This document shows, piece after piece, positions 6,330 to 58,066 of a stretch of 64,000 nt of DNA. A model generated the notes under the pieces. That model did no database searches and had not been told where the DNA came from. It saw only the letters and a list, made by a program, of their open reading frames with translations. Every line of letters starts with the position of its first letter. The first letter of the stretch is position 1. Both the position numbers and the translations under genes were made by a program. The stretch comes from a virus (taxonomy: Duplodnaviria > Caudoviricetes), in the IMG/VR virus record IMGVR_UViG_3300005739_000025; one strand, 5' to 3'.

Positions 6330-6337
6330 TATAAATA
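6330..6337 (+). promoter_or_regulatory. T4-type late promoter TATAAATA
   Basis: Exact motif just before the ATG at 6347. Also at 17078-17085, 45224-45231, 46903-46910, 50034-50041 (+) and 5392-5399, 35038-35045 (-), each close to a gene or RNA start. Confidence 0.75.
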
Positions 6338-6346
6338 TATAATACC

Positions 6347-6493
6347 ATGAATCTAAATTTCGATAATATAATTAAAGTTTTATTGGAAAAAAATAAAAGA
6401 GCTCCTAGAGGTGTTTGTTGGAAGGGTTATAAAATGGTTGGGATGAAAAAAAAAGGCGGCAAAAAAGTGCCAAATTGTGTCCCTAGCAAATAA
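6347..6493 (+). CDS. 48-aa basic protein with CWKGYKMVGMKKKGGKKVPNCVP motif; missing from the ORF track
   Basis: Manual translation; the motif is recurrent in aquatic T4-like phages; late promoter upstream. Confidence 0.8.
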   Translation: MNLNFDNIIKVLLEKNKRAPRGVCWKGYKMVGMKKKGGKKVPNCVPSK

Positions 6494-6503
6494 ATACTAA
6501 TAT

Positions 6504-7847: not shown

Positions 7848-8389
7848 TTTAAATATTTTTCTATTATTTCCATTCTTTGTTCAACTGTGCCACTGAGACG
7901 AATTACTTTTTCTCTGTTAGAAGGCGACATCTTATATTTTATAAGATCTTCAAACATTGCAATTATATCTTCTCTAAATCTAAAATCAACGCTACGCTCT
8001 CCGTCATTAACTAGTTTAACATCTGTAGGATCGGTATAGAAAATATAATCTAATTTATCCATCAAAACACCGTAAACCCCATTAAATGCATGTAAAACCT
8101 GCTCAGAAACCTTACCGTTCACAACCTGATACTTTGTATAAACATAACCATCTAAAATACATCTATCCAATATTAAATTTTCATCACTCCTCAAATGGTT
8201 CTTAATATGTTCTGCTAAAATGTATAGCTGAGTTTCAGTGCCACCAATTTCATTTATTTTAACGTCATATGTTCTACGTACATATCTTGTAACTTCGTCT
8301 ACAAATTTATAATCCTTATAAACCTCTTTACACTTGTTAAGTAACGTAGTCTTACCCGTACTCTGAGCACCTGTAAATGAAACTCTCAT
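7844..8389 (-). CDS. P-loop (d)NMP kinase-like protein (AAA_28/NadR-like)
   Basis: GAQSTGKTT Walker A, LILDRCILD motif, DGER lid. Confidence 0.8.
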   Translation of the reverse strand: MRVSFTGAQSTGKTTLLNKCKEVYKDYKFVDEVTRYVRRTYDVKINEIGGTETQLYILAEHIKNHLRSDENLILDRCILDGYVYTKYQVVNGKVSEQVLHAFNGVYGVLMDKLDYIFYTDPTDVKLVNDGERSVDFRFREDIIAMFEDLIKYKMSPSNREKVIRLSGTVEQRMEIIEKYLK

Positions 8390-8404
8390 GCAATTATTAT
8401 ATCA

Positions 8405-8761
8405 TCACTTATTCCACTTGCCACTATGAATTATTTGTGCAATAATTCCATAGACAGAAATATCTTTAAAAGAATCAATCATAGGCTCGTTATGAGCATC
8501 GTGGTCCTTAGTATAGAAAAGTATATTAATTAATCTCTGAACCTTCTCAGTACATCTAATACATATAACGGTAAGTGCAGTAGATATGTCTTGTTTGTTT
8601 CTTACTTCTCGTCCTAATGAAATGTTGTAAGGACCGTAGTCGTGGAGTTTACTACAAAAAGTTTCGTATTGTTCTTTTTGTATTTTTTTAAACTCCTCAA
8701 CTGTTTTAGGGTATTTTTGTTCTATTTCTAGAATTGTTTGTTGTAAGTCTTCAGGTGGCAT
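8405..8761 (-). CDS. Nucleotide-modification-associated domain 1 (DUF1599-like) protein
   Basis: K.HDYG..NI...EKVQRL...E...DSFKDISVYGII pattern. Confidence 0.75.
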   Translation of the reverse strand: MPPEDLQQTILEIEQKYPKTVEEFKKIQKEQYETFCSKLHDYGPYNISLGREVRNKQDISTALTVICIRCTEKVQRLINILFYTKDHDAHNEPMIDSFKDISVYGIIAQIIHSGKWNK

Positions 8762-8762
8762 A

Positions 8763-9329
8763 TTAGGTAATTCTCATTTTAATAAAGTCAGTCCATAAGT
8801 CAATAGATTCTTCGCGTAAAGCTATAGAAATACTTTCAACATCTTTAAATGTGTTATCTATCTTGGAATATACACAGACGCCACCTGCGTCTACCTCAGC
8901 AATAACTTGGTGTATAACTGTACCTATGGTTTTGTGTTGAAGATCAAAAGCCTTTTGCTGAGGGTCCTTACCCTTTAGCTCAGGGTATGTTATAATATCA
9001 CCTGGATGTCCGTTGTAGATGTTAAATTTACTACAAATTTCTGGGGGTACAATTCTCATCCAACCGTGTAGTGTAATAATATGGTTATCTGGTGGCTGCA
9101 GAAAGAGATCGTACTCTTCTGCTCTAGGTATCTTTGTTACAAAAGTAATATCGTAGTTTTGAGATTGTAGAAAATTCCAAAACCTTTCATCGATACCATC
9201 TTTAATAGGCTTTCTATTACATATAATCTGTGTGGGCAATAATTTAAGCTTTTTTATAATACAATAAAGCTCGTACCCAGTTCTACTAAACATCGCTGTC
9301 CAGCAGATGTTTTTTGGTTTAGTATACAT
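8763..9329 (-). CDS. PurN-like formyltransferase (DpdN-like candidate)
   Basis: MFSRTG, LHGWMRIV, YNGHPG, GTVIHQVIAEVDAG formyltransferase motifs. Confidence 0.8.
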   Translation of the reverse strand: MYTKPKNICWTAMFSRTGYELYCIIKKLKLLPTQIICNRKPIKDGIDERFWNFLQSQNYDITFVTKIPRAEEYDLFLQPPDNHIITLHGWMRIVPPEICSKFNIYNGHPGDIITYPELKGKDPQQKAFDLQHKTIGTVIHQVIAEVDAGGVCVYSKIDNTFKDVESISIALREESIDLWTDFIKMRIT

Positions 9330-10128
9330 ACAGTCTAAATTTAGCTATATTACGTCCTATGATCTGTAATTGGTCATCGTCTAATTTAGCATTAATTAGA
9401 TCAGCTAATTTTATTGATACCTTTTCCCAGTCTCCTATTTTTTCTTCATACTGTACTTTATGTATACCGTGAACTATAGGTGAGGAGGTGTCGAGAGACT
9501 CAATAAAATTAAAATCTTCATGTTTATAAAAAGAAAACTCTAATGGGTTGCTACAACCCAATAAATGGTGTGGTTTGTTTTTATTAATAACACCCATCTT
9601 TAGTAATTCTGAAATTAGCCAAACTCTACCATTCATAAATGACACCCACTTGTTGGGGTGCCAAGCTACATTTTTGTAATATGAATAATCAAAAGAAATA
9701 GCAATTTTATCCACATTTAACTGCTCATCTAAAAATCTATAACAATCGACTATCTCTTTATAGGTCTTACCTTGAACAACTCCTATTTTTTTTCCTGGTA
9801 AGTCTGGATACTTATCTACAAAATTTTTAGAATTTATTTTAGTAGCTTCACTATCTTCTAAGACATCAGGTAATATATATTCATACGGTTTTAACTCTTT
9901 AACCCAATAGGCATATTTTTCTAAATTAAACGCTTCCCCTAGCTCAAAAATAGATGTATCTAACAGTATTCTTCTTCCTTGACTAGAAGAATATTGAAAA
10001 AATTCTTTATATTGTGGTTCTTGTTCCAATAAATGCACCAAACAATAATCATAGTCGTTATATGATAATGATTTGTCAAGTAATTGAATAGGAGATTCAT
10101 GCGAAATTAAGGGTATTTTGCGACTCAT
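9319..10128 (-). CDS. dpdA: TGT-fold transglycosylase (DpdA-like 7-deazaguanine enzyme)
   Basis: LLDTSIFE, ILPDVL, IGVVQG, HHLLGC, SLDTSS motifs; in an operon with queF. Confidence 0.65.
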   Translation of the reverse strand: MSRKIPLISHESPIQLLDKSLSYNDYDYCLVHLLEQEPQYKEFFQYSSSQGRRILLDTSIFELGEAFNLEKYAYWVKELKPYEYILPDVLEDSEATKINSKNFVDKYPDLPGKKIGVVQGKTYKEIVDCYRFLDEQLNVDKIAISFDYSYYKNVAWHPNKWVSFMNGRVWLISELLKMGVINKNKPHHLLGCSNPLEFSFYKHEDFNFIESLDTSSPIVHGIHKVQYEEKIGDWEKVSIKLADLINAKLDDDQLQIIGRNIAKFRLYVY

Positions 10129-10175
10129 ACAAATATGTTAGTGTATAAACAAAGATTTACAAGTAAATATTTTAT

Positions 10176-11258
10176 ATGAATTTAAAAGCAGCTGATATCA
10201 CATCAGGAGCAAGCGAGCTATTAGAAAATTTGCAAGAGGGTATTTCCCTTTCTGATGTATTATCTATTGCTCAAATGCCTAAGCTAGATCAATTTTCAGA
10301 AATAGCATCAACTCTTTTACCTCAAAATTTAGTAAAAATAGACAGTAACGGTGCATTTCAATTATTGGATCAACTATCATTACAAGATACCATAAAAAAT
10401 GGTTTAAATAGTATTCAAGGATTAATAGAATCAGAAATAAAAGGGGTTATAGATCAAGTAACTTCTACTATTGGACAAGCGTCTGATGTAGTAAATAGTG
10501 TTTCTGATACTCTTACATCGCTAGGTAAGGGTGACTTGCAGGATTCTGTTGATTTTTTTGATGATGCGCTTGGAGGAGTTTCTAACTTATTGGGTTATAT
10601 GGGTGATACAGGAACATTATCAAAATACAGTAAAACAGTATCGGATGTAACAAATTCTATAAAGGATTTTTCACCAAAGCAAATAAGAGATTTAGCGACA
10701 GATCCTGATTATAGAGAAAGTATAATAGCTTCTACATTAGAGACAGCGACAAATGCGTTAGAGGGGGAAGTTTTGGATACAGTAAGAAAATTTATACAAC
10801 CTCCAACAAGTGTTGAAGCTATAAATTCCCTTGCAACTACTGCCAATAGTTTATTAGGAAATAAAAATTCGGCTAAAAATCCTAATGAACCTTATTTTAT
10901 TGATGTAGTGGCTACAACTTATTATGGTAAAGGTCCAGGAGCAGATTTAGATGCATATAATAAAAAATCAGCTACTGGTAGACAGCTTATGTCTGGTAAA
11001 AGTTGTGCTGTAGATAATGTAAAGATTTTATATGGTAGTAAAGTTGAAGTGCCAGGAATAGGTTCATTTGATGCAGTTGATAGAATTAAGACTGGAGGGG
11101 CAACATTACAGTTATATTACGAATCTGTAACTGAGGCAGCCGAAGTTCAATCTAAATTAATGGGTCCTGTAGTAGTTAAAGTTACCCCACCTAAAAATAG
11201 TCTACCAGCAACACAAACATTAACACAAAGAAAAGGAGATAGTGCTAAATTAATTTAA
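10176..11258 (+). CDS. Protein with C-terminal 3D (MltA-like) cell-wall domain, probably baseplate-associated
   Basis: ATTYYG...SATG....GKSCAVD...YGSKVEVPGIG...AVD pattern; adjacent to the gp5-like gene. Confidence 0.65.
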   Translation: MNLKAADITSGASELLENLQEGISLSDVLSIAQMPKLDQFSEIASTLLPQNLVKIDSNGAFQLLDQLSLQDTIKNGLNSIQGLIESEIKGVIDQVTSTIGQASDVVNSVSDTLTSLGKGDLQDSVDFFDDALGGVSNLLGYMGDTGTLSKYSKTVSDVTNSIKDFSPKQIRDLATDPDYRESIIASTLETATNALEGEVLDTVRKFIQPPTSVEAINSLATTANSLLGNKNSAKNPNEPYFIDVVATTYYGKGPGADLDAYNKKSATGRQLMSGKSCAVDNVKILYGSKVEVPGIGSFDAVDRIKTGGATLQLYYESVTEAAEVQSKLMGPVVVKVTPPKNSLPATQTLTQRKGDSAKLI

Positions 11259-11259
11259 T

Positions 11260-13695
11260 ATGTTTACAGGTCAATACAATACAATTTATAAAGGTATAGT
11301 AATTCAAAACGACGATCCGCTTCAAAGTGGTAGAGTAAAAGTTTTTGTTCCATTTATTCATACAGGTCTATTACCCTTACCAGAACAGAAGTATGATGAA
11401 AATGTTAATTTTGGTTTATTCGGTAAAAACGTTAACAAACAAAATAAAAATCAGATTGACTTAACTGAATATATAGAAATATTAAAATCAAAATTGCCTT
11501 GGTGTCAGGTAATAATGCCAATTACAGGGCAAACCGGTAATTCTAAATATAATAACGCTACAGGTCTAACATCTCCCTCAGATAGTGACAGCTCAAATTA
11601 TACGTTAGCTTTATCGGATACAGAATTAGGTGGTGGACCTGCCGAGATTAACGAAGGACTTACTAGTATATGGGGTAGTGGAGCAGCTGCAGGTGGTATT
11701 ATGGCTAGTTCTAACCCAGGGGGTTTTAATACAGATGCTGGTTATAATAAGGCCGCGGGCAATTTTACCGTACCCACAGTTAATACTCAAGTTTGGGTAA
11801 CCTTTATGAATGGAGATGCCCAATTTCCGGTTGTAATTGGACATGCACCTGCTACTTTAGATTTTCAACAAAATCTAACCCCCTCTGGATATCCCGGCTC
11901 TTATGAAAATAGAGGAGATGTAAAATCTAAATCTAATTCAGATGAAATTATTTTTAGGCATCAGCAGGTATCAAATTCTGGTGCATGTAAGACTATAGTT
12001 AATAATAATACAAATAATAGATTTGAATCAAAGGTGCATGTATCTGGCTCGTCAGAAACTACTACTAATGATGGTTCGAAAAACAGCTTTATAACAGGGG
12101 ATAAGAGCAATATAACTCAAGGTAATGTATTTGAAGATCATAAAACATCTTTTAATTCCCACGTCGATGGTCCAAGAACTGTTATAGCTCGTGGTGGCAG
12201 TAGAAGGGTGGTTGGATCAAACAATGTAGCTGCTGCACAAGGTGAGAAAATGGAGCTTTCAAAAATATCAAAAATGAAAGCTCTATTTGAAAATAAAAGA
12301 GCAGAACCCGATACATTGTTTTCTTCTACAGAACAGTCATATGTTGATGCGCCAACTGAATGTCCTGCGTGTAGTAAAAATAAAACACAACCAACCTATA
12401 AGGGTGAAAGTGGGTTGGAGCAAATTAAAAAACTTATTCCTGTAGATTTAAACGTGCTTAAGAGCTTAATACCTTTTGAAATACCGGCGTTTAACTTAAA
12501 AAATCTATCAGTTGAAAACGTTCAATACCCTCAAGTTAATGAGTGTGTGGTTTGTAAGGCTCCTAACAAAGGTAAATCTCCTAGCTCTCAGGATGGAAAT
12601 TTTCCAAAAGACGATAGAAAAGAAAAGATAGGTCCAATGTATGTGGAAGCAGCTCCTAAGCTTGCAAGTTATGGTCAAGCGCTAGGTGAAGATGGTGATG
12701 ATATTACAGAGGTTACTGGTAATATGGTTATTAATGTTGGGCTTGCATTTAATGACTTAGATCCAATTAGAGTTGACAAAAAAGGCAAACTTACAAATGC
12801 AGGTGTGTCAATAGATAAAGTGGGTGCTTATCAAAAACAAGTAGAATCACCATTAATTGAACCTGTTCATGTTGATGATTTATCAGGAGGAACTTTAACT
12901 ATTGCTGCAAACAATAAGCTTGTGTTTATTGTTGGAGCTGGTGGTATAAAATTTCAGACAGCTGGAATGACGGAGATAGGCGGAGCATTAGCAAATTTTT
13001 CCGGTGAACAAGTAAATATATCATCGTCAAATGAGGTAAATGTGAACGGTGGAGGCAGATTAAACCTTGAAGGTAAAATTTTAAGTTTAAAATCAGGTTC
13101 AGGTCAAGTCGGTATTGATGATAACTTAGCTATTGGCAAAAATTTTGTTTGTCAAGGGGGTGGTATGTTTAATGGACCATTACACGTTAATGTAATTTCA
13201 GCTCCTATTTCTTATCAAGAAACTGAAGAGTTACAAGAAAGCTATGGCACCACGGACTACAAAGTTGCAAAGATTATAGGGTATCTATTAAAAAATATAA
13301 CATGGAAAGCTAAAATAGGTTCGCAAGGTCAGCCTATCGTTCAGCCTAGTACAGGAATACCAATAGATGGCGCGACGTTTACTATTACTCCCGATGAAGA
13401 TGTAAACATTAAAAGTATAGGTACAACTGGTGCATTACCAGAAAAATCAAACGTAAGAATACACCCTCATTCTCACATTTTTAGAAATGTGCCTTTAAAT
13501 TTAACAGGTAATGCTGAAGATAATTTTAATTTAGCAAAAAGTACATTATTAGGAGATTCTCCTGCACCGCCAATGGAAATTAAAAACGGTAAAATGGGAC
13601 CTGACCCTGATAAAAATGTAAACAAAAAATCTAACTTTGATAAAAACTTCGATAGACAAGAAACAGGCCAAAATATGTACGTAGACTTTACATAA
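11260..13695 (+). CDS. gp5: Baseplate hub/spike protein, gp5/VgrG-like
   Basis: N-terminal OB fold IVIQNDDPLQSGRVKV...VPTVNTQVWVTFMNGD..FPVVIG; beta-helix-like repeats; C-terminal HPHSH. Confidence 0.75.
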   Translation: MFTGQYNTIYKGIVIQNDDPLQSGRVKVFVPFIHTGLLPLPEQKYDENVNFGLFGKNVNKQNKNQIDLTEYIEILKSKLPWCQVIMPITGQTGNSKYNNATGLTSPSDSDSSNYTLALSDTELGGGPAEINEGLTSIWGSGAAAGGIMASSNPGGFNTDAGYNKAAGNFTVPTVNTQVWVTFMNGDAQFPVVIGHAPATLDFQQNLTPSGYPGSYENRGDVKSKSNSDEIIFRHQQVSNSGACKTIVNNNTNNRFESKVHVSGSSETTTNDGSKNSFITGDKSNITQGNVFEDHKTSFNSHVDGPRTVIARGGSRRVVGSNNVAAAQGEKMELSKISKMKALFENKRAEPDTLFSSTEQSYVDAPTECPACSKNKTQPTYKGESGLEQIKKLIPVDLNVLKSLIPFEIPAFNLKNLSVENVQYPQVNECVVCKAPNKGKSPSSQDGNFPKDDRKEKIGPMYVEAAPKLASYGQALGEDGDDITEVTGNMVINVGLAFNDLDPIRVDKKGKLTNAGVSIDKVGAYQKQVESPLIEPVHVDDLSGGTLTIAANNKLVFIVGAGGIKFQTAGMTEIGGALANFSGEQVNISSSNEVNVNGGGRLNLEGKILSLKSGSGQVGIDDNLAIGKNFVCQGGGMFNGPLHVNVISAPISYQETEELQESYGTTDYKVAKIIGYLLKNITWKAKIGSQGQPIVQPSTGIPIDGATFTITPDEDVNIKSIGTTGALPEKSNVRIHPHSHIFRNVPLNLTGNAEDNFNLAKSTLLGDSPAPPMEIKNGKMGPDPDKNVNKKSNFDKNFDRQETGQNMYVDFT

Positions 13696-13701
13696 AAATA
13701 T

Positions 13702-13765
13702 AGCAATTATCTATCAAACAGTAGCTTATAAAGCTCCCACCATCCCACCCCTGTTTGATATTGCT
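13702..13765. other. Intergenic branched stem-loop with a C-rich (minus strand G-rich) bulge
   Basis: AGCAAT/ATTGCT, TATCAAACAG/CTGTTTGATA, inner AGCT/AGCT, and CCCACCATCCCACCC. Confidence 0.55.
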
Positions 13766-13830
13766 CCGTACAAATTTTATTTATATAAAAATAGAGTATT
13801 TTTTTCAAAATCAACAAACTAAATATTATT

Positions 13831-14316
13831 ATGCCCGTGTTAATTGAAGAATTATACACGAAAGAAGAACAAGAGAGTATCAAAAAACTCTACAGTGGTG
13901 ATGAGTCTGTTCACGAGTTATTAAAAAAGGCATTTGGACAAAAAATTTTAGCAGAAAAAGAAAAAGTTCTTATTACTAACGCATTAGATGTTTTGTGTTT
14001 TATGTGCTTAAACTCGCCTTTTGCCGATGATGAGAATGAGTGCTATACCGTTGCTGTTTTTGTATACAAAAATATGAAAACTTTTAATCTTTTACCGTTA
14101 GTAACAGAAGAGCATGGAATTAATTTAGCTTCTAAAATATTAGTTTCTTTATCTTTCTTTAAAGATAGATTAATAAGAAGAATGAACAGGTATGGTTATC
14201 CTGGTCCAGAGTATTATAGAAAAGTTGGTAAGCTTATACTTAAGCAACATGAACATAAAAATATTGCAGCTCACCATGAAAAGTGGGAAGCATTTTTAGG
14301 CGAAATTTTTATTTAA
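13831..14316 (+). CDS. Hypothetical protein (161 aa)
   Basis: ORF track; typical codon use. Confidence 0.7.
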   Translation: MPVLIEELYTKEEQESIKKLYSGDESVHELLKKAFGQKILAEKEKVLITNALDVLCFMCLNSPFADDENECYTVAVFVYKNMKTFNLLPLVTEEHGINLASKILVSLSFFKDRLIRRMNRYGYPGPEYYRKVGKLILKQHEHKNIAAHHEKWEAFLGEIFI

Positions 14317-16294
14317 TTGGACATGCCCCACTAACACATTCTAAGTTCTCTATAGTACCTTCTTCTACCACTATGTTGTTAAGGGTTTTTACTTTAGAGC
14401 TTATTTTTTCATACTGTTCTTTTGTTATCTCTTCGTAAGGTGCTTGAGCAAATCCATGTTCATTATGTAGTAAAAAACTAACTGATTTAATAGAAGTTTC
14501 AAAGTTACCGTTTAACCACTTTTGAATATCTTTTAGTTCTTCTTGTCTATAGTAAACTGTAACTGATACTGCGTTATCTGACCAGATAGATTGTATCTTT
14601 TTTACCAATTCTAATTGCTGTACTGCGGTCATGTTTTTGGCTACAACACTGTCTTCGCCTGCACAGCAAGGAAACGACACAACAAAAGTATCGTGATTTT
14701 CTGTACCATCAAAGTTTTTAGCATATTCAACCCCATAACCTAAATCTCTACAAGTATTAACTAAGCTGTCAGAAGAAGCCATTCTAACTCTTCTAATATA
14801 GAATGGTGCATACGCTGGGTGCACGCCCGGTGTTGACCCCGCTAACAAAGATAATGTACCAGATGGTTTAATAGTTGTTAATTTAATACTTTCAGGGTAT
14901 CCCTTTGTTTTTGACCATTCTTTATCAAATTTACGTAAAGCCTCGTAAGTTTTTTCTAACCATTCTAGCTTTTGTTCTGAACACTGACATATACCGGTAA
15001 CACCAAGACCTAGTCTCATATTTTTATGAACTATTTTATTAGTTTCATCATGAATAAAGGGCATAGCTGCAATAGCTTTTTGTGTTTTATATAAAAGCGT
15101 GGCACAGGTTTTTAATTCTTCCTCAGAGTTTATATTATTAAGATATAATTCAGATAAATTACAACACTCATAAGATGTTAGAGATATCTCAGCGCAAGGA
15201 TTAGTTCCTAGTGCGTTGTCTTCATCTGTGGGATATAATTTAGATTTTTTCATTGGACCGTCTTTTAATCTACCAAATTTTTGTGATAGTGGTAGATTAA
15301 AGAACCCGTATGGTTCTCCTTTAGCAAATCCCGTTTCTTTATCAATTATATATCCATTAGACCAAATCTCATCCGATATATGGGTAAAATCGTCTGCATA
15401 GATAGTATTGTTGGACATTGCTCTCCAGTTTGGTATATTACCTAAAGACCAATTTTTAGCACGTAGATAAAGATAGTCGTCAGGATCCCCCAAAGCAATT
15501 TGAGCTGATCTACGAACATTACCCGCTACCACAATTGAGCCAATAATATTACAAATATCTAATACATCTATTGAACGTAATTTTTTACCTTCTCTGTGTT
15601 GAAAGATTTTTGTTATCTTTTGTATACCTTCAATTAATATACCAGGTCCAGAAGCAGTGCCACCAAAACCTGAAATAGATTCACCAGCACCTCTTACTAA
15701 TATTGTTGAATACGAAAAAGATTTGCCTGTAATATAATAGGCTTCTAAAACTTTTCTTAATAACTCAACCCAGCCCGATCTTGAATCTGGGACTATAAAA
15801 TCTGCATCCTTTGTATTTTGATGTGTAACTACTACCTCTTTTTTAATTTTTGGTAACTCGTGAATATCTTCTCTACGAATTGAGAAACCAACACCACCAC
15901 CGAGCATTAAATTCTCAAAAATAAAAAGAAAAGCTTTAGGATCATTTATTGACACGAACCAGCAATTTAGTAAACTATTAGCACCGAACTTTTTTACTGT
16001 TTCGGTACCTAACTGCCACAACATTCTTCCAGCAAAATTACACTTAAGGTTAAAAATTAAATCATATAACTTTTGAGCTTCTTCTGGAGTATAGTCAGCT
16101 CCTATTTCTTGTGCACCATTAATACATCGAGCTACTGTTTGCCACCACTCTTCTGTTTGATTCGTTCCTTCTATTTTTCTGGCATATGTTCTTTTATAAA
16201 CTACGTAGCCTAATCCATTAAACCCCCATGGTGGAATTATAGTTTTGTATTTCGAAAGGAAAGACTCAGGTAAAAGATTAGATTCGTAACTCAT
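14309..16294 (-). CDS. nrdJ: Class II (B12-dependent) monomeric ribonucleotide reductase
   Basis: KRTYAR, AGRMLW, LLNCWF, GGGVG, GNVRRSA, NPCAEI, CCNL, TTIKPSGTLS, C-terminal C..GACPIK. Confidence 0.9.
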   Translation of the reverse strand: MSYESNLLPESFLSKYKTIIPPWGFNGLGYVVYKRTYARKIEGTNQTEEWWQTVARCINGAQEIGADYTPEEAQKLYDLIFNLKCNFAGRMLWQLGTETVKKFGANSLLNCWFVSINDPKAFLFIFENLMLGGGVGFSIRREDIHELPKIKKEVVVTHQNTKDADFIVPDSRSGWVELLRKVLEAYYITGKSFSYSTILVRGAGESISGFGGTASGPGILIEGIQKITKIFQHREGKKLRSIDVLDICNIIGSIVVAGNVRRSAQIALGDPDDYLYLRAKNWSLGNIPNWRAMSNNTIYADDFTHISDEIWSNGYIIDKETGFAKGEPYGFFNLPLSQKFGRLKDGPMKKSKLYPTDEDNALGTNPCAEISLTSYECCNLSELYLNNINSEEELKTCATLLYKTQKAIAAMPFIHDETNKIVHKNMRLGLGVTGICQCSEQKLEWLEKTYEALRKFDKEWSKTKGYPESIKLTTIKPSGTLSLLAGSTPGVHPAYAPFYIRRVRMASSDSLVNTCRDLGYGVEYAKNFDGTENHDTFVVSFPCCAGEDSVVAKNMTAVQQLELVKKIQSIWSDNAVSVTVYYRQEELKDIQKWLNGNFETSIKSVSFLLHNEHGFAQAPYEEITKEQYEKISSKVKTLNNIVVEEGTIENLECVSGACPIK

Positions 16295-16305
16295 GACAGT
16301 TCTAT

Positions 16306-16815
16306 TTAGTCCTGAACTATTAAAAACAAATTTAACGATGTAAATGCTTGAAATTTAGGTATTTCGGGATTAAAACAAATAAAATTTTCGTAATCAAATT
16401 CTGGTATTATTTTTTTAATATGGTGATTATCAATAGGGTATATAGGAGGGTTTAAATTATAATAACAATTATTACAAGTTAAATTATTTTCATTTAATAA
16501 TAGATTATATCCAATTAAATCGAATTGTTTTTGATGTCTTATCTTTCTTACTAGATCTCCGAAAGTGTCGGTTATCTCTTTTACTATACCAAACAAATTT
16601 AAATCAATATTATTCAATCTATATCTACCAGGAGCATAATTTTCCTGTATACATAGTCTTTTTTCGTCATATAAGTTTTTAATTTTAGTTCCTATAAAAA
16701 TACACTCTTTGGGAATCTCTGAGTATGTTTGTATGGGCTGCTTTTCAACTAATTCATTACTTAACATCTTGACTCTATTATATATCTTATAGAGAAAATT
16801 CAACATGCTATACAC
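16306..16815 (-). CDS. Hypothetical protein
   Basis: ORF track. Confidence 0.65.
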   Translation of the reverse strand: MYSMLNFLYKIYNRVKMLSNELVEKQPIQTYSEIPKECIFIGTKIKNLYDEKRLCIQENYAPGRYRLNNIDLNLFGIVKEITDTFGDLVRKIRHQKQFDLIGYNLLLNENNLTCNNCYYNLNPPIYPIDNHHIKKIIPEFDYENFICFNPEIPKFQAFTSLNLFLIVQD

Positions 16816-17044
16816 TAAAAGTTGTAATAGTTGTAAAATTAGGTAGTTTCATTATTCTACCTCTTAATCCTGTTGGAGTCTTAAACACTGTAACACATCT
16901 ATCACCGGTAACAATAGGTCCAGAGGAAACGGTACCGTCATAGGATAAAGTACCCACCGTGGAACCTGTACTTGTATTAATACAAGAAAGTCTATGTTTA
17001 CCAACAACTACACTATAAATTGGTTTTACTTTATCATCAGCCAT
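16808..17044 (-). CDS. Hypothetical protein (78 aa)
   Basis: ORF track; AT-rich leader. Confidence 0.65.
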   Translation of the reverse strand: MADDKVKPIYSVVVGKHRLSCINTSTGSTVGTLSYDGTVSSGPIVTGDRCVTVFKTPTGLRGRIMKLPNFTTITTFSV

Positions 17045-17098
17045 ATCTATATTTATATGTAAATATCAGTACTATTTTATAAATAATTTGTATATTAT

Positions 17099-20000
17099 AT
17101 GGGTGATTATACTAGAATCATACTTAGACAGGGTCCTGATAAAGACAGAAAAAGAGTAATTCTTAAATCCGGTGAACCTGCGTTTGTAACTGATTATCAA
17201 AGAATTGTGGTGGGTGATGGTGTAACCCAGGGTGGTGTGACTATAGGCTCTAAGTTTTTGGGGTTTGTGGAATTTGATAGTGTATCAAATGAAGTTTTTA
17301 ATGCCACGCCAGGCTATCCAGGGGATATTGTCTTTGAAACTACCTCTAATTTAATGTATATTCTTTCGGGAGGGGAAGTTTCATTAGGTAAAGAGGCATA
17401 TCAAATAAAAACTAACTATGTTGAAATTAATAAAACTCCGTCTCCTGATAATATTAATTTATATAATAATAATGGAGTTTTAAGTTTAATTCAAGATAGT
17501 ATAGATGCAAGATATCTTGCAACTTTTGCAATAGGTAAGGGGTTAACTAAAAACCCGCTAAACAATTCCATCTTAGAAATGAAAGATCCTTCTCCGGAAC
17601 TTTCCTTTGATGGGGGAACCTTACAATTAACAGACGGAGGGGTAGAGAATATAAAACTAGCTCCAATGAGACCCAACACGGTTAAGGCTAGAGTAAATTT
17701 AAGTGGTCCGCCAGAAGATATTACTTTTGATGAATTAAAGTTTGCTTTAGGTTTAATTGCAGAGGGTGGTGGCCTTACGTTCGGTGTTCCTGTTGGCACC
17801 ATTATTGATTTTGCTGGTCCGGATGGCAAAGCTCCTCCAAACTATTTACCATGCGATGGTAGAGAATTACCTGTTAATGATTATTTTGAATTATTTGATG
17901 CAATAGGAAATACCTGGGGTGCGCCTACATTAACTTCTTTTAGTTTACCTAACCTAAATAAGAGAACAACTATAGGTAAGGGTAGTTTGTCTGGTACGGG
18001 AGCTTCTGATTTTGTAAATGAGAGATTAGGTAGTTATGGTGGTTCATTAGCAAACCAGCTTACCGTTAAACAGCTCCCACCACATATTCATGGCCTGCAG
18101 ATAAACATACCTGCTCATAAACATGAATTCACTGTTACTATTCCTAGATTTTCTGGAGTATATGAAGCAGGTAGTTTAGTTACAAATGGGTACAACAATT
18201 ATATTATAATAATTGGAGGTAATGGTCCTGATGCCGCGCCTCCGACAACTCCAAGAGGTCCTACAGATAGCTTAACCACTATAAGAAGTCAGGCTGCAAG
18301 TATTATAAAATCTCAAAAAAGTTATATTCAACAAAGAACTGTTGATTATGTTTATGATAATTTTCCTATAGCATTATCTGCTTCCTCAACTACAGCTGCA
18401 GTAAATTTATCTTCAAAATGTTTTAGAGATACAGGTTATATAGTGGATTCAATAGCAGCAGATCTATTGAATAACGCAAATCATAGAGCTGTAGAAACAG
18501 GAAATCTCTATTTTAGCGGTTATATTAATAGCTTTCAACAAAATACAACAGTACCCGCTCTTCCAGGCAATCAAGTACTTCCTACTATTGCTGCTATAGA
18601 AAATATAGGATCAATTATAGCAGGTACAGACATTGTTTACACACTTGGTGGTAATTATACCAACAATGGTGTGCTATCATCGTTAACATTTTTAAACCCT
18701 ATTCAAACAGTAGCAATTGGAGGTTTAAGAAACTTCACCAATGTTATATCTAACAGCGCATTTGTTCCAGTAACTACTCCTAACGGTGTAGTGCCTTTTG
18801 ACACAAATAATACATACTTTAATGCTGGCAGTGCTATACTTCAAAACAAACAAAATATCCAACAAAGAATAGTTGAATTTGTAAAATATAATTTTCCTTA
18901 TGCATTATCAGCTGAAAATGCAATACAGGCTAATGCTCTATCGGCGAGATGTTATAGAGATACCGGTTATATTGTTGATTCAATTGTAGCTGATATAAGA
19001 AACAACGCTAATCATAGATCAGTAGAAACAGGTCAATTTTATTTTAGTGGCGCAATTTTACTAAGAAATCAAATAGTTGGATCAACTGTCCCCACATTAC
19101 CATTTGAACAGGTAAACGCTACAATACAGGCTATTTCTGCAGTAGGTAAATTGATAAATGGGTATTTAATGCCTACAGAACAAAATTATACAACTTTGGG
19201 AGTTTTATCGTCAGATATATATTTTACTGCATCTCAAAATATAATGTTAAGTAGCTTTAATAATTTTACTAGAGTTATTTCAAACAGTGCTGATATACCT
19301 GTAACAACACCCTTAGGTACTAGATTACAGCCTGTCTCTTCTTATGATTTAGCAGTAGCAACATTAGCGCCAAGAAGAGAAGAAATACAAAACCAAATAG
19401 TTCAATACACATTATTTAAATATCCATACGCATTGTCTTCATCTGCATTATTTGGAATTAGTGCAGCAGATATTTCTATTACTAATGCAGGGTCTGGATA
19501 TACAACACCTCCGACTGTATTAATACAGGGTGGAGGTGTTAATGTAACTAGAGTTGCAAAATTTGTAGCTGATATAAACACAACAAACTTTACGGTAACA
19601 GCAATAAGAGTGTTAGACGCTGGTGTTGGCTATACTGACTCAGGCTCTATTACCGCAATATTAATTCCATCTCAATTTGATAATATTATTGTACCTGCAG
19701 GTTTTACTATAAATTCCTTATCAGAGGTGGTAGCAGCAAATGCTATGGGATTAACTGCAAAATGTTTTAGAGATACTGGATTTATTTTTGATGCTATTCT
19801 TGCTGATATTAATAATGCATCTAATCATAGATCAGTAGAAACCGGTCAATTTTATTTTAGTGGCGCAGTTTTATCTAGGAATGTAAATGTGGGAAGCACG
19901 GTTCCAACTCTTCCTCTGGAAGAGGTAGAAGCAACCATCCAAGCAATATCAGCTATAGGTAGATATATTACAGGCGATAACTTTCCACAACCGATTATTG

Positions 20001-54844: not shown

Positions 54845-55102
54845 ATGAATTTTGAAATTTTAATAAATGACTTATTAAAAAAGAATTATAAAATTAATGA
54901 GCAGTTAGCTAAAGGTAAAACTTTAGAAGATATATCTAAAGAGACAGAAACATCAAAAGAAATATTAAATAAAGAACTTAAAAAAGGAATAGAAATAGAA
55001 AAAGAACATACACCATCAGAAAAAAAAGCTAAAACCATAGCTAAAGATCATCTTATTGAAAATCCTAAATATTATACTAAATTAAAGAAAGTAGGATTAT
55101 AG
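54845..55102 (+). CDS. DUF5661-like protein
   Basis: GIEIEKEHT...IAKDHL.E.P.YYTKL. Confidence 0.75.
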   Translation: MNFEILINDLLKKNYKINEQLAKGKTLEDISKETETSKEILNKELKKGIEIEKEHTPSEKKAKTIAKDHLIENPKYYTKLKKVGL

Positions 55103-55176
55103 ACCCTGTAGTGTAATGCAAAGCACGTTATGCATATAGCATAAAGATAGAGGTTAGAATCCTTTCAGGGTCGCCA
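55102..55176 (+). tRNA. Atypical tRNA with TAT anticodon (Ile-AUA type) or pseudo-tRNA
   Basis: GACCCTG/CAGGGTC-GCCA; TTATG-CATATAG-CATAA (A33, C32:G38); T-loop TTAGAAT. Confidence 0.65.
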
Positions 55177-55902
55177 TTAATTGTTTTTAGTCGCAAAATT
55201 ATTCCACCTTTCTGTATTACTTAATTCCTGCTTGGAGTTTAACTCTACATGTCCATCAAAATAAGCCACTACGGCTTTATTATTATACCTATAATCTACC
55301 TCCCCGACAGCTCCTCTAGTTTCAGGACCCGCCACATCAAAACACCCCCTATGTTCTGCTCCTTCCATTTTACTAATCGCAAATACAACTAGTTTAGAAG
55401 GTTCATTAACCTGAGTGATATTAGTTACTACTGATTTATTGCCTCTATCTGGTGAAACAGGAGTACCGTACTTACCCCCAACATAAGTACCATTCATACC
55501 AAATGTTGTAAAAACTGTTACTAGATAAGAATACATACTATCATCTGGAGGAGCAGCTTTCTGATTGTTAACCATTAAGATGTTAATACTATAATCTATA
55601 TAAGGCGCAAGTCTCCATGGCCATCTTTTTGCAGCATGGGACATGACTGGCTTACCTTTATCGTCTAATACTTTACCTGGTTTAGGGTCCATAGCTTTAA
55701 TTAATCGCCCTCCATTATCAGCTGCGTAAGCATGAAACCCTGCCATTAATGCTCTACCTGCATGAACCTCTCTTCCCTTTTCAGCAGATTTTATATAACT
55801 AGAATAACCTGAAAAACCAATAGCAGCTAAAATGGTTATAACTGCTATAGATACTAATAGTTCAATTAACGTAAAAGCCCTTGCATATCTTAAAAAGTTC
55901 AT
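55177..55902 (-). CDS. Prepilin-type N-terminal cleavage/methylation protein with H-X9-DG-like C-terminus
   Basis: RAFTLIELLVSIAVITILAAI and YRYNNKAVVAYFDGHVE. Confidence 0.9.
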   Translation of the reverse strand: MNFLRYARAFTLIELLVSIAVITILAAIGFSGYSSYIKSAEKGREVHAGRALMAGFHAYAADNGGRLIKAMDPKPGKVLDDKGKPVMSHAAKRWPWRLAPYIDYSINILMVNNQKAAPPDDSMYSYLVTVFTTFGMNGTYVGGKYGTPVSPDRGNKSVVTNITQVNEPSKLVVFAISKMEGAEHRGCFDVAGPETRGAVGEVDYRYNNKAVVAYFDGHVELNSKQELSNTERWNNFATKNN

Positions 55903-55918
55903 ATATTATATATATACT

Positions 55919-56680
55919 ATGAAAATATTATTTCTAGGAATTACATATTTTTTTACTTTAATTTCTATTCTACACTCTCAAATTATTACTGTAAATATGG
56001 GAGGAACTACTAGTTTTTCTTCTTGGTCTAATATAAATTCTTTTAACTATTCAGGCTACGGCTCATTTCCAGGAAACACTCCATGGCCTGCACCTATAAG
56101 AGCTACACAAGGTTCAACAAATTCAACTTTAAATAGAGTTACTGGTTCCCCAACAGGTGGAGGACCATTTCTAGCATCAGAATCAATATATTTTGGCAAT
56201 TTCAGTCAAATTCCAAATGCATTAGGAGGAACACTTAGACTGTCTAATTCTATTTCTTTAACAAATATTAAAACTCTTGTACTGCAAATACAAATAGGAG
56301 AAGCAACAGGGTATGATTTCTTTACACCTACTGGTTTTCCTAAACTCTCTTTAAACGGAATAACAAATTTTGCTGCTTACACCAATCTTGTTAATAGATA
56401 TCAAAATGGTACATTTCCTAGTCCTGAAACAGGGTTAGATGAACCCGTATATGTTAATACATGGGCGTACCAATGGAAAATTACAAATGCATCAGTAAAC
56501 AGCTATTTTGTAGATTTTAGCGCGGTAACACACGCCCAGGTCTACAACATCAGATGGGATAGCTCTTCCATGGCATATAACACGCCAGTTATTCCTGAAC
56601 CATCTACTATTGGTTTGCTGGCCTTTAGCGCTGCTGGGTTTGCCGTTTACATTTATAGAAAGAGAAAAAGAAGTAAATAG
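55919..56680 (+). CDS. PEP-CTERM sorting-domain secreted protein (253 aa)
   Basis: Signal peptide MKILFLGITYFF...; C-terminal VIPEPSTIGLLAFSAAGFAVYIYRKRKRSK. Start moved from 55832 to ATG 55919. Confidence 0.9.
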   Translation: MKILFLGITYFFTLISILHSQIITVNMGGTTSFSSWSNINSFNYSGYGSFPGNTPWPAPIRATQGSTNSTLNRVTGSPTGGGPFLASESIYFGNFSQIPNALGGTLRLSNSISLTNIKTLVLQIQIGEATGYDFFTPTGFPKLSLNGITNFAAYTNLVNRYQNGTFPSPETGLDEPVYVNTWAYQWKITNASVNSYFVDFSAVTHAQVYNIRWDSSSMAYNTPVIPEPSTIGLLAFSAAGFAVYIYRKRKRSK

Positions 56681-56699: not shown

Positions 56700-57113
56700 A
56701 TGAATTGGCTACCATTAGTAATTTTGGTAGCCTTTTTTGTTTTTATTATACCCAATTATAAAGAATTTGAAAAGCCGGAATTAAAAATTTTACCCGATGG
56801 ATGTGTAGTATATTCTATATATCATAAAATGGCTTTAGAGGCTAATGAAAAATTAGAACCTTATCTCTGGTCTAGAGTGCTCGCTATACACTTTTATAAC
56901 AAAGTAGGTCACGCTGTTAATGTATTTGTCTACAAGAATAATACCTTTGTTTATAACCCAGGACTTGGTACTTATCCTATATATGAGAGACCTATATATG
57001 ATCCATTACAATTAGCGGAAATAATTTTTCCAGATACACCTATTAGAAGAGCGTATTTTTTAGAACCCACATTGTTATTGCAATATCAAAAAGAATATCA
57101 TATTATAGAGTAA
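56700..57113 (+). CDS. Hypothetical protein with N-terminal TM/signal anchor
   Basis: ORF track; hydrophobic N-terminus; spaced Cys and His residues. Confidence 0.65.
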   Translation: MNWLPLVILVAFFVFIIPNYKEFEKPELKILPDGCVVYSIYHKMALEANEKLEPYLWSRVLAIHFYNKVGHAVNVFVYKNNTFVYNPGLGTYPIYERPIYDPLQLAEIIFPDTPIRRAYFLEPTLLLQYQKEYHIIE

Positions 57114-57409
57114 TGCAAGAAATTATTAAGGAAATAGCAGGAGCTATTATGACTATAAGTTTTATGTTTTGCTATGTACCGCAAATAATTAAAATTTTTA
57201 AAAATAAATCCTCTAGAGATGTTTCGTTGATGTTAATAATTATGTCTATGATAGGTTATATTTCAGGAATGGTTTATTTATTTTTAGGTACATTTGGTAT
57301 ATGGTGGTTTTTAAATTACTGCGTAGGGTTAATAATGTGCTCGATTTTAATATACTCTTGGTTTAAATATAGAAAGAACAGCGATACTGATAATTGCTGG
57401 AATAGTTAA
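57113..57409 (+). CDS. PQ-loop/SemiSWEET-family small transporter
   Basis: Three TM helices; YVPQIIKIFKNKSSRDVS. Confidence 0.8.
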   Translation: MQEIIKEIAGAIMTISFMFCYVPQIIKIFKNKSSRDVSLMLIIMSMIGYISGMVYLFLGTFGIWWFLNYCVGLIMCSILIYSWFKYRKNSDTDNCWNS

Positions 57410-57434: not shown

Positions 57435-57659
57435 ATGAAATTAAAAATACCTTTTATTAAAAATAATTACTATTTAACACTTAAATCTTACTATTGTGGG
57501 GCTGTAGTAGAGAGTAAAACATCGAGAGCAGGCGAAGATTGGCTAAGAGGTAATGATTTAATTGATGGAAAACTCTGGGCGTTACCTAAAACACTTTGGG
57601 ATATTATTTGCTATGAATTCTATCTTGGCAGATGGTCTAATAAATGTAAAAATAATTAA
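57435..57659 (+). CDS. Hypothetical protein
   Basis: ORF track. Confidence 0.5.
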   Translation: MKLKIPFIKNNYYLTLKSYYCGAVVESKTSRAGEDWLRGNDLIDGKLWALPKTLWDIICYEFYLGRWSNKCKNN

Positions 57660-58066
57660 TTTAGTTTTCTAAGACGGTACCTTTGATTGTACTGAGAGCG
57701 TTTAGAGTTCTTTTTATTTCTCCCACAAAAAGTTTCTGTTTGAGAATGACAATTTGGGCATAATAATCGAATATTACTAGGTATGTTGTTGTCTGAGTTA
57801 CCATCTATATGATCAAGATGTAACGATATCGGTTTATTGTTCCATTCAGCTATATTACAAGAAACACATTTATACCCTGCTGTTTTAGATAAAAAACTTT
57901 TTAATGTATTAGGTTCGCTGCATTTATTTTCTTTTATTTTTTTTACCGTTACATTTTCAAACCGATAATTTGCTTGACATTTATTATTACAAAATTTGCC
58001 TTTTGAACTAGATGTTTCATAAGTAAAAAAGACGTTGCAATATAAACAGCTTGACTCTTTTTTCAT
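57656..58066 (-). CDS. Free-standing HNH endonuclease
   Basis: C..C Zn motifs; LHLDHIDGNSDNN..SNIRLLCPNCHS. Confidence 0.9.
   Translation of the reverse strand: MKKESSCLYCNVFFTYETSSSKGKFCNNKCQANYRFENVTVKKIKENKCSEPNTLKSFLSKTAGYKCVSCNIAEWNNKPISLHLDHIDGNSDNNIPSNIRLLCPNCHSQTETFCGRNKKNSKRSQYNQRYRLRKLN

What the first reader, a model, noticed from the sequence alone, without database searches (positions are those of the whole stretch)
55177..56680. Phage-borne host surface pair: prepilin/H-X9-DG protein and PEP-CTERM protein
Seen: head-to-head genes only 16 bp apart (ATATTATATATATACT), flush against a tRNA 3' end (55176/55177). One has a type IV pilin FTLIELL leader and a ..FDGH C-terminal motif; the other has a signal peptide and PEP-TM-basic tail. 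Known: both families are greatly expanded in Verrucomicrobia, Planctomycetes and relatives, and need host prepilin peptidase and exosortase. Inference: the host is a PVC bacterium, and the phage may remodel its surface (receptor masking, pilus jamming, superinfection exclusion). The base composition looks phage-like, suggesting long residence.
Basis: partly seen in the sequence, partly recalled or inferred. Interest (0 to 1): 0.7.

Follow-up and report, generated by a model that had tools for sequence, protein, structure and literature searches.

The report
Phage copy of a haem-linked envelope pair
A large freshwater T4-like phage carries its own versions of two cell-envelope genes that Verrucomicrobia bacteria keep directly beside their haem oxygenase gene, which points to the host and suggests the phage acts on the host's haem or iron uptake at the cell surface.

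Summary
Gene A (55177-55902, minus) is a prepilin-type protein and gene B (55919-56680, plus) has a signal peptide and a PEP-CTERM tail. They lie head-to-head, 16 bp apart, and A's stop abuts a tRNA. The window is a T4-like phage of about 244 kb (33% GC).

New points:
- At least nine related phage contigs carry such a pair, always head-to-head and inside the tRNA island.
- Cellular relatives were found only in Verrucomicrobiota, mostly Chthoniobacterales and related lake lineages. There the genes run in tandem, B then A.
- In 47 of 50 cellular loci with enough flank, a haem oxygenase gene starts 15-62 nt after A. A haem-type ABC importer often follows.
- Both genes are single-copy in three MAGs of that lineage, and those MAGs also encode exosortase and prepilin peptidase.
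- The phage copies form one clade for each gene and are under purifying selection. Their GC matches the phage.
- The pair is a mosaic. A belongs to one cellular subtype and B to another, and some related phages pair the same A with the other B subtype.

Best reading: a host-derived envelope module that depends on host processing enzymes and acts in the host's haem or iron capture pathway. It may boost that pathway (about 0.4) or mask a receptor (about 0.25). The ligand, the host link and expression are untested.

The parts
55177..55902 (-). Gene A: prepilin-type protein of 241 aa with a globular domain like DUF1559 / H-X9-DG proteins (subtype A2)
   Evidence: ORF. PF07963 and TIGR02532 score above their cutoffs. 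The AlphaFold model has pLDDT 93. Its fold matches predicted DUF1559 and GspG-like clusters at TM 0.5-0.69, best E 4e-10. There are 262 homologues.
55816..55902 (-). Prepilin leader (M1-A9), predicted cleavage before F10, Glu at +5, and a hydrophobic helix
   Evidence: N_methyl match over residues 5-29. Alignment shows R-[GA]-F-T-L-I-E-L-L.
55249..55287 (-). C-terminal motif Y206-X9-D216-G217-H218. The position that is His in H-X9-DG proteins is Tyr in this copy.
   Evidence: Alignments A1 and A4: G217 invariant and D216 and H218 nearly so; position 206 is H, Y, W or F among relatives.
55903..55918 (.). 16-nt AT-only spacer between the two divergent start codons
   Evidence: Sequence. The spacer is 15-22 nt in related phage loci. 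No Shine-Dalgarno sequence and no T4 late-promoter word lie here.
55919..56680 (+). Gene B: secreted PEP-CTERM protein of 253 aa with a beta jelly-roll domain (subtype B1)
   Evidence: ORF. TIGR02595 scores above its cutoff. There are 286 homologues. The AlphaFold model has pLDDT 77 and is all-beta. The best structural matches are carbohydrate-binding modules at Z about 8, which indicates only a common fold.
55919..55981 (+). Signal peptide of B (residues 1-21, ending ..HSQ)
   Evidence: Hydrophobic N-terminal helix in the model. Q21 is nearly invariant in the family. The cleavage site is inferred.
56591..56677 (+). PEP-CTERM sorting signal of B: IPEPS, a membrane helix and a basic tail
   Evidence: TIGR02595 match over residues 225-251. 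P226 and E227 are invariant and P228 nearly so.
55102..55176 (+). tRNA-Ile(TAT), convergent with A and flush against A's stop codon. It is a neighbour, not part of the pair.
   Evidence: ARAGORN. A tRNA sits in the same flush position in L001-L003 and L031.

Best explanation
What it is (shown, confidence about 0.85): a phage-borne version of a two-gene envelope module of Verrucomicrobiota. In cells a PEP-CTERM protein (B) and a prepilin-type protein (A) are encoded in tandem directly before a haem oxygenase gene. A haem-type ABC importer often follows, or TonB-ExbBD genes lie nearby. A family of large freshwater T4-like phages keeps one A and one B head-to-head in its tRNA island.

How it probably works (inferred, confidence about 0.4): during infection the host Sec system exports B, and the host exosortase processes its PEP-CTERM tail so that the jelly-roll domain ends up on the cell envelope. 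A inserts into the inner membrane by its pilin helix and is cut by the host prepilin peptidase. It then stays membrane-anchored in the periplasm or joins a pseudopilus. The two proteins then act as extra capture components that feed the host's own haem or tetrapyrrole (iron) uptake route, meaning its binding protein, permease, ATPase and haem oxygenase. This would keep iron supply up in the infected cell, in the way cyanophage PstS adds to the host phosphate importer.

Not shown: the ligand, contact between A and B, expression, and the identity of the host.
For: Phage identity: T4-type portal, baseplate hub, tail fibres and helicase.

The pair is conserved in related phages. The 237-kb, 227-kb and 92-kb contigs and several shorter ones all carry it head-to-head, at 32-42% GC.

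Cellular context:
- Scans with the B profile returned 19 genome loci, all from Verrucomicrobiota MAGs, and 75 metagenome loci, most of them cellular (GC 45-65%); wherever both genes were found in a cellular locus they run in tandem B then A.
- Haem oxygenase starts 15-62 nt after A in 47 of 50 loci with at least 700 nt of flank. This holds in two different gene orientations and in at least two orders.
- Next to it lie Peripla_BP_2, FecCD and an ATPase whose best NCBIfam match is the haem ABC ATPase (254 bits, cutoff 261).
- Full-length A and full-length B are each single-copy in three MAGs of the lineage. All three MAGs also encode exosortase and prepilin peptidase.

Function appears to be kept in the phage:
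- The phage copies form one clade for B (SH-aLRT 93, sister to a Lake Mendota Chthoniobacterales MAG at 100) and one for A (99.7).
- dN/dS is 0.04-0.3 with saturated dS.
- Of the columns at least 95% conserved in cells, 27 of 36 (B) and 28 of 48 (A) are kept in phage copies, and the A changes are mostly conservative.

Selection acts on the pair. The B partner has been exchanged between subtypes B1 and B2 while A was kept, and the head-to-head layout persisted.

Timing: none of the T4 late-promoter words (TATAAATA), several of which sit just upstream of structural genes, lies before A or B.
Against: - The haem link is inferred from gene neighbourhood in cells only.
- No haem oxygenase or ABC importer gene lies near the pair in the 64-kb window or in the flanks of related phages. 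The rest of the roughly 244-kb genome could not be searched.
- B's fold is a generic jelly-roll like carbohydrate-binding modules, with no recognisable haem site. It could bind a glycan.
- The third gene of the A2-type cellular module (X, 357-389 aa) is absent from the phage loci, so the phage set may not be functionally complete.
- The candidate hosts have 45-65% GC against 33% for the phage.
- No CRISPR link was found in the part tested.
- A phage that keeps only the surface-exposed parts also fits receptor masking.
Confidence: 0.4

Rival explanations
1. Receptor masking or superinfection exclusion. The cellular A/B module is surface-exposed and serves as the receptor, or part of it, for this phage group. 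The phage-made diverged copies replace or cover it, so that later phages and released progeny do not adsorb to the infected cell. This would work like T5 Llp or phi80 Cor blocking the iron-siderophore receptor FhuA.
For: The phage keeps only the envelope components. X, haem oxygenase and the importer are absent. Nutrient-uptake surface proteins are common phage receptors (established knowledge). The B partner has been swapped between subtypes inside the phage family, as expected if it must match the host's surface type. The pair sits in the variable tRNA island with other accessory genes. No T4 late-promoter word precedes it.
Against: Known blockers such as Llp and Cor are not homologues of the receptor. 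Adding a homologue of a receptor would be expected to add binding sites, not remove them. Most residues conserved in cells are retained in the phage copies, and selection is purifying, not diversifying. No data show that the module is a receptor.
Confidence: 0.25
2. The module acts on the surface but has nothing to do with haem. B is a glycan-binding or adhesive jelly-roll protein and A is a minor pseudopilin. The phage uses them to change adhesion, aggregation or capsule properties of the infected cell. The haem oxygenase neighbourhood in cells is inherited synteny without a shared function.
For: The best structural matches for B are carbohydrate-binding modules at Z 7-8.4. PEP-CTERM proteins are generally linked to exopolysaccharide-producing bacteria (established knowledge). 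Some cellular B proteins carry extra Ig-like DUF1573/ASH domains typical of adhesins. Haloferula has an A2-type module without haem oxygenase.
Against: The 15-62 nt spacing to haem oxygenase holds in 47 of 50 loci, across two orientations and two A/B subtypes. That is hard to explain without a functional link. The structural matches lie in the Z range that unrelated jelly-rolls also reach (note).
Confidence: 0.2
3. Artefact: host DNA joined to a phage contig by misassembly, or decaying passenger genes with no function.
Against: The same arrangement appears in independent assemblies from different samples and studies. GC is 34%, like the phage, against 45-65% in cells. The reading frames are intact and dN/dS is 0.04-0.3. 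The identical protein A is recorded on four contigs, the longest of 244 kb.
Confidence: 0.02

Closest known systems
Cyanophage PstS and similar phage auxiliary metabolic genes that encode nutrient-capture components
   Same: The gene is host-derived and the phage copies form a clade of their own. The phage carries only the substrate-capturing outer component and relies on the host's membrane transporter. The genes are under purifying selection and sit among accessory genes of T4-like phages.
   Different: Here there are two genes, with sorting signals (PEP-CTERM and prepilin) that I found in no paper on phage-encoded proteins. The ligand is unknown. The phage pair is a mosaic of two cellular subtypes. 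Uptake has not been measured.
T5 Llp and phi80/N15 Cor, phage lipoproteins that block the iron-siderophore receptor FhuA
   Same: They are phage-made envelope proteins that act on a host iron-uptake surface component during infection.
   Different: Llp and Cor are small lipoproteins unrelated to their target. A and B have no lipobox and are homologues of host proteins. A blocking function is not shown.
PEP-CTERM / exosortase protein sorting (TIGR02595, PF07589; exosortase PF09721)
   Same: B has an N-terminal signal peptide, a PEP motif, a membrane helix and a basic tail. The candidate host genomes encode exosortase.
   Different: B is encoded by a phage. No PEP-CTERM-like or prepilin-like ORF other than B and A was found in the 64-kb window; exosortase itself was not searched for there. 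The passenger domain belongs to a family with no Pfam model.
Prepilin-type DUF1559 / H-X9-DG proteins of Planctomycetota and Verrucomicrobiota (PF07596, TIGR04294)
   Same: A has the prepilin leader, a globular domain whose predicted fold matches DUF1559 clusters, and a C-terminal x-X9-DG-H motif. JGI names several homologues H-X9-DG proteins.
   Different: Neither HMM matches any of 31 family members at E 0.01 or better. His is replaced by Tyr in this copy. The gene is single-copy per genome and haem-oxygenase-linked, not part of a large paralogue expansion.
Gram-negative haem uptake loci (HmuTUV/PhuTUV with HemO-type haem oxygenase)
   Same: The cellular loci have a haem oxygenase, a cluster-A binding protein, a FecCD permease and a haem-type ATPase in one row.
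   Different: No TonB-dependent receptor gene was seen in the flanks examined beside them. The B/A pair takes the upstream place instead. The phage carries none of the importer genes.

Membership tests
Type IV pilin-like (prepilin) N-terminal domain, PF07963 / TIGR02532 | HMM score above the curated cutoff | tested here: met
   PF07963 scores 28.5 bits (cutoff 21.2). TIGR02532 scores 25.6 bits (cutoff 16.3).
Type IV pilin-like (prepilin) N-terminal domain, PF07963 / TIGR02532 | Short basic leader, small residue at -1, Phe at +1, Glu at +5, and about 20 hydrophobic residues | tested here: met
   The N-terminus reads MNFLRYARA then FTLIELLVSIAVITILAAIGF. Position -1 is Ala here and Gly in most relatives.
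Type IV pilin-like (prepilin) N-terminal domain, PF07963 / TIGR02532 | Cleavage and N-methylation by a prepilin peptidase | not testable with these tools
   A peptidase A24 gene is present in three candidate host-lineage genomes. Processing of the phage protein is untested.
H-X9-DG / DUF1559 (TIGR04294, PF07596) | Match to the family HMMs | tested here: not met
   Neither model appears among the hits at E 0.01 or better for any of 31 members, including the window's protein. JGI's own annotation names some homologues H-X9-DG.
H-X9-DG / DUF1559 (TIGR04294, PF07596) | His, nine residues, then Asp-Gly near the C-terminus | tested here: not met
   The window's copy has Y206-X9-D216-G217. Relatives have H, Y, W or F at that position.
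H-X9-DG / DUF1559 (TIGR04294, PF07596) | Fold of the globular domain | tested here: met
   The model (pLDDT 93) matches AlphaFold DB clusters named DUF1559 or T2SS protein G at TM 0.5-0.69, best E 4e-10. No solved structure matches beyond the pilin helix.
PEP-CTERM sorting domain (TIGR02595 / PF07589) | C-terminal PEP motif, membrane helix and basic cluster, with the HMM above its cutoff | tested here: met
   TIGR02595 scores 22.1 bits (cutoff 16). Pfam scores 19.9 bits, just under its 20.7 cutoff. The tail reads IPEPS, then a hydrophobic stretch, then RKRKRSK.
PEP-CTERM sorting domain (TIGR02595 / PF07589) | N-terminal signal peptide | tested here: met
   Residues 2-17 form a hydrophobic helix, followed by a conserved [AS]-Q. 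No dedicated signal-peptide predictor was run.
PEP-CTERM sorting domain (TIGR02595 / PF07589) | An exosortase in the same cell | tested here: met
   PF09721 matches above its cutoff in all three candidate host-lineage genomes. That these are the hosts is inferred.
Phage auxiliary (host-derived) gene | The phage copies form a clade nested among cellular homologues, are under purifying selection and have phage-like composition | tested here: met
   Trees and AU test. dN/dS is 0.04-0.3. GC is 34% against 45-65% in cells. The trees are quick searches with midpoint rooting.
Haem uptake / utilisation system | Encoded with haem oxygenase and a haem-type ABC importer | tested here: not met
   Met for the cellular orthologues: 47 of 50 loci have haem oxygenase. 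Not met for the phage pair: no haem oxygenase or importer gene in the window or in related phage flanks.
Haem uptake / utilisation system | Binding of haem by the proteins | not testable with these tools
   No known haem-binding fold or motif was recognised. This needs spectroscopy on purified domains.

The most novel reading that the evidence does not exclude
The PEP-CTERM protein and the pilin-like protein form a previously undescribed outer route for haem or tetrapyrrole capture in Verrucomicrobiota. It would take the place of the usual TonB-dependent receptor and give a first function to a branch of the large DUF1559 / H-X9-DG-like group. A family of jumbo T4-like phages has captured this route, re-paired its parts from two host subtypes, and uses it to control iron supply or its own receptor during infection.
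Probability: 0.25. Interest if true: 0.8.

Novelty: new variant of a known kind. Interest (0 to 1): 0.58.

Why it matters
- It gives a testable host assignment for an uncultured family of roughly 230-245 kb freshwater phages: Verrucomicrobiota, probably Chthoniobacterales-like lake lineages.
- It uncovers a conserved cellular module, a PEP-CTERM protein and a prepilin-type protein placed directly before haem oxygenase. This is a rare functional lead for the very large and uncharacterised group of DUF1559 / H-X9-DG-like proteins of the PVC bacteria.
- In the library searched, I found no paper describing a phage-encoded PEP-CTERM protein. This one implies that the phage relies on the host's exosortase and prepilin peptidase.
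- The exchange of the B partner inside the phage family shows that selection acts on the pair. That makes it a good system for asking whether phages boost or block nutrient-uptake structures.

Tried and rejected
- Complex prediction on A(30-241) with B(22-224), each with its alignment, returned no verdict at score 0.00. This says nothing about binding either way.
- Structural search of B against the PDB (Foldseek and VIA-align wide) gave only generic jelly-roll and carbohydrate-binding-module matches at Z about 8 or less. A against the PDB matched only the pilin helix.
- The ESM Atlas feature search for B gave scores of 0.76, below the useful range.
- The cultured-phage collection holds no match to A or B. 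The IMG/VR scan with the B profile returned no relative. The phage family is therefore seen only in metagenome assemblies here.
- CRISPR-style host link: window 1-20000 against 401 Verrucomicrobiota genomes gave only short imperfect matches at chance level. The best one is not in a repeat array. The other 44 kb were not searched.
- Fur box: a scan with the E. coli consensus upstream of B was only weakly enriched, and the loci are related to one another. I dropped it as evidence for iron regulation.
- The conserved palindrome found instead occurs once in the one whole genome where it was found. It defines no regulon and names no regulator.
- Sequencing runs: no RNA holder was listed. The four DNA runs laid gave only fragments and no contig bridging the junctions.
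- Sigma-70-like promoter and terminator scans around the pair were not above chance.
- The 237-kb relative could not be searched for haem oxygenase because the record is not held.
- I first took the class-III aminotransferase next to type II loci for HemL. NCBIfam shows it is of the acetylornithine/putrescine type, so I withdrew that haem-biosynthesis link.
Full report
OBSERVATION

The window is a tailed phage. It encodes a T4-type portal (phrog_213, E 5e-104), a baseplate hub, several tail-fibre proteins and a helicase. The nearest cultured portal is that of cyanophage S-CAM8, at only 32% identity. GC is about 33% throughout, and twelve tRNA genes lie between 50291 and 58199.

At the reported place, gene A (55177-55902, minus strand, 241 aa) and gene B (55919-56680, plus strand, 253 aa) diverge from a 16-nt spacer made only of A and T. 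The stop codon of A touches the 3' end of tRNA-Ile(TAT), at 55176/55177.

A has a prepilin leader and the FTLIELL helix with Glu at +5. It passes PF07963 and TIGR02532. B has a signal peptide and a PEP-CTERM tail. It passes TIGR02595 and falls just short of the Pfam cutoff. A regular-expression scan of all window ORFs found no other gene of either kind.

Two details need correcting. B starts at 55919, not at the upstream in-frame ATG at 55832. In this copy the H-X9-DG motif reads Y-X9-DG.

NOT AN ARTEFACT, AND NOT UNIQUE TO THIS PHAGE

Fetching contigs showed a family of large phages with the same pair head-to-head:
- a 237-kb contig (A 85%, B 75% identical), flanked by the same DUF5661 gene, with PQ-loop and DUF932 matches nearby, tRNAs, and a T4 portal further along;
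- a 227-kb contig;
- a 92-kb contig;
- shorter contigs.

In three independent assemblies a tRNA abuts A's stop with no gap, and in another a different tRNA follows 1 nt after it. The pair is thus a stable resident of the phage tRNA island.

Phage loci have 32-42% GC. Neither protein has a match in cultured phage genomes, and the IMG/VR scan with the B profile returned no relative.

WHERE THE GENES COME FROM

A scan of one genome per species with the B profile returned 19 loci. All are Verrucomicrobiota MAGs: Chthoniobacterales, 'Methylacidiphilales', subdivision 6, Terrimicrobiaceae and Chthoniobacter. A metagenome scan added 75 loci.

The loci fall into two clean classes.

| Feature | Phage loci | Cellular loci |
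|---|---|---|
| GC | 44% or less | 45-65% |
| Gene order | divergent (head-to-head) | tandem, B then A |
| B identity to the window | 61% or more | 34-60% |
| A identity to the window | 55% or more | 28-43% |

In the cellular class, a haem oxygenase gene (PF01126) begins 15-62 nt after A in 47 of 50 loci that have at least 700 nt of flank. It is on the same strand in 16 and convergent in 31.

- In Chthoniobacterales-type loci the row is hemA-hemC-hemD, B, A, haem oxygenase, a Peripla_BP_2 binding protein, a FecCD permease and an ATPase. The ATPase's best NCBIfam match is the haem ABC ATPase (254 bits, cutoff 261).
- In the other type, TonB-ExbD-ExbB lie a few kilobases upstream and the haem oxygenase gene is convergent.

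In three MAGs of these lineages (2.1-2.7 Mb), full-length A and full-length B each occur once. All other hits share only the pilin helix or the PEP-CTERM tail. All three MAGs encode an exosortase and a prepilin peptidase.

The cellular pair is therefore a specific orthologous module tied to haem oxygenase. It is not a random member of the expanded PVC families.

EVOLUTION IN THE PHAGE

In the B tree, all phage-context copies and the high-identity copies from unexamined contigs form one group (SH-aLRT 93). Its sister is the B of a Lake Mendota Chthoniobacterales MAG (support 100), and the whole group is nested among cellular sequences.

In the A tree, the phage copies are again one group (99.7), but they lie in a different deep branch, here called A2. 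Their nearest cellular relatives belong to three-gene modules: B2, then X (357-389 aa, no Pfam match), then A2. These modules are also followed by haem oxygenase and the importer. The A genes that accompany B1 in cells, including in the sister MAG, form the other branch. Forcing phage A together with that MAG's A is rejected (AU p about 1e-6; the group was named after seeing the tree).

The window's pair is therefore a mosaic of an A2-type gene and a B1-type gene.

Two other phage contigs carry A head-to-head with a B2-type protein. One such partner is 51% identical to a cellular B2 and only 25% identical to the window's B. The phage family thus always keeps one pilin-like gene and one PEP-CTERM partner, and the partner has been exchanged at least once. 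X was not seen in any phage locus.

Among the phage copies, dN/dS is 0.04-0.3 with saturated synonymous sites. Most columns that are at least 95% conserved in cells are kept: 27 of 36 for B and 28 of 48 for A, with mostly conservative changes in A.

STRUCTURE

A folds with high confidence (pLDDT 93) into a long pilin helix and a compact mixed domain.
- No solved structure matches beyond the helix.
- Predicted DUF1559 and GspG-like clusters match at TM 0.5-0.69.
- The DUF1559 and H-X9-DG HMMs do not match any of 31 family members.

A therefore resembles that group in fold but is not a demonstrated member.

B (pLDDT 77) is a beta jelly-roll. Its best matches are carbohydrate-binding modules at Z about 8, a level that unrelated jelly-rolls also reach. 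Neither model shows a recognisable haem site.

MECHANISM

Shown:
- The pair is host-derived, conserved and intact.
- Its sorting signals need two enzymes that the candidate hosts have.
- Its cellular orthologues are placed directly before haem oxygenase and sit beside a haem-type importer.

Inferred: in the infected cell B is exported and handed to exosortase, A is processed by prepilin peptidase, and the two act at the envelope in the pathway of their orthologues.

I rate three readings:
- About 0.4: they add capture capacity for haem or a related iron source and feed the host's importer. This is the logic of cyanophage PstS.
- About 0.25: they mask or replace a surface structure that serves as a receptor. 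This is the logic of T5 Llp acting on FhuA.
- About 0.2: they do surface work unrelated to haem, such as glycan binding or adhesion.

The T4 late-promoter word sits just upstream of several structural genes in the window, and no copy lies before A or B. This fits a non-virion role, but the evidence is weak.

HOST

Every named cellular homologue is from Verrucomicrobiota, apart from one distant Phycisphaeraceae protein. B's sister is a freshwater Chthoniobacterales MAG.

It remains an inference, for two reasons. The GC gap to the phage is 12-30 points. A CRISPR-style search of 20 kb of the window against 401 Verrucomicrobiota genomes found nothing usable.

LITERATURE

No paper in the library combines PEP-CTERM with phage-encoded or auxiliary metabolic genes. 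Only five papers mention DUF1559 or H-X9-DG, none of them in the title or abstract.

VERDICT

The feature is real and conserved, and the reading can now be more specific than general surface remodelling. It is a new variant of the known class of host-derived phage accessory genes. It also provides a useful side result on a haem-oxygenase-linked envelope module in Verrucomicrobiota. The biochemical function is still open.

Noticed in passing
L004:9116-9133, L013:9846-9863 and 34 further places in the cellular loci: A conserved palindrome, ATTAG-N5-CTAAT, lies about 95 nt upstream of the first gene of the cellular operon in the 'Methylacidiphilales'/subdivision-6 type loci. All 36 matches to TTAG-N5-CTAA in 700 kb of cellular loci lie in that promoter region. 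The full motif occurs only once in one 2.2-Mb genome. It is probably the operator of a dedicated, unidentified regulator. It is not a Fur box.
   Followed up: partly
L011:9977-11535 (Chthoniobacterales MAG): This MAG's B is sister to the phage clade, away from the B of other Chthoniobacterales. Its A groups normally with theirs. Its B may have been replaced by lateral transfer, possibly from a phage back into the cell.
   Followed up: partly
window 57113-57409 (+): A 98-aa PQ-loop / SemiSWEET-like membrane protein (PF04193, E 2e-11) overlaps the stop codon of the gene before it. Homologues recur within a few genes of the pair in related phages (L002 and the 227-kb contig). Its function in a phage is unknown.
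   Followed up: no
window 56700-57113 (+): A 137-aa ORF with an N-terminal membrane helix starts 19 nt after B. It has no family match and is not conserved next to B in the relatives examined.
   Followed up: no
L021:9965-11878, L022, L026, L064: In some Chthoniobacterales the B protein is about 640 aa. The B domain is followed by three Ig-like DUF1573/ASH/HYDIN-type domains. Many other cellular B ORFs are 320-350 aa, against 253 aa in the phage; some of the extra length may come from start-codon calls in GC-rich DNA.
   Followed up: partly
L074, L084, L094, L018, L027 (between the aminotransferase gene and B): A further PEP-CTERM protein gene, of about 230-300 aa, lies upstream of B in one group of cellular loci. 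There the palindromic operator sits in front of this extra gene.
   Followed up: no
window 5392, 17078, 35038, 41688, 45224: The T4 late-promoter word TATAAATA lies directly upstream of structural genes (tail fibre, portal and others). Its total count in the window is not above chance. This is consistent with T4-like late transcription.
   Followed up: partly
L109:1501-1533 (Verrucomicrobiota MAG G332) and G238, against window 13520-13552: Two MAGs carry a 31-33 nt stretch about 90% identical to part of the baseplate hub gene. In L109 it lies in AT-rich, phage-like DNA and not in a CRISPR array. This is possibly a related phage binned with the MAG.
   Followed up: partly
window 54845-55102 (+) and 57656-58066 (-): A DUF5661 protein (85 aa) is the conserved neighbour of the pair across the phage family. 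An HNH endonuclease gene sits among the tRNAs.
   Followed up: no
L001:10727-10801, L031:10740-10810: The tRNA that lies flush against A's stop differs between relatives: Ile(TAT) in the window, a CAT-anticodon tRNA in L001-L003, and Thr(TGT) in L031. The tight convergent junction is kept while the tRNA itself changes.
   Followed up: partly
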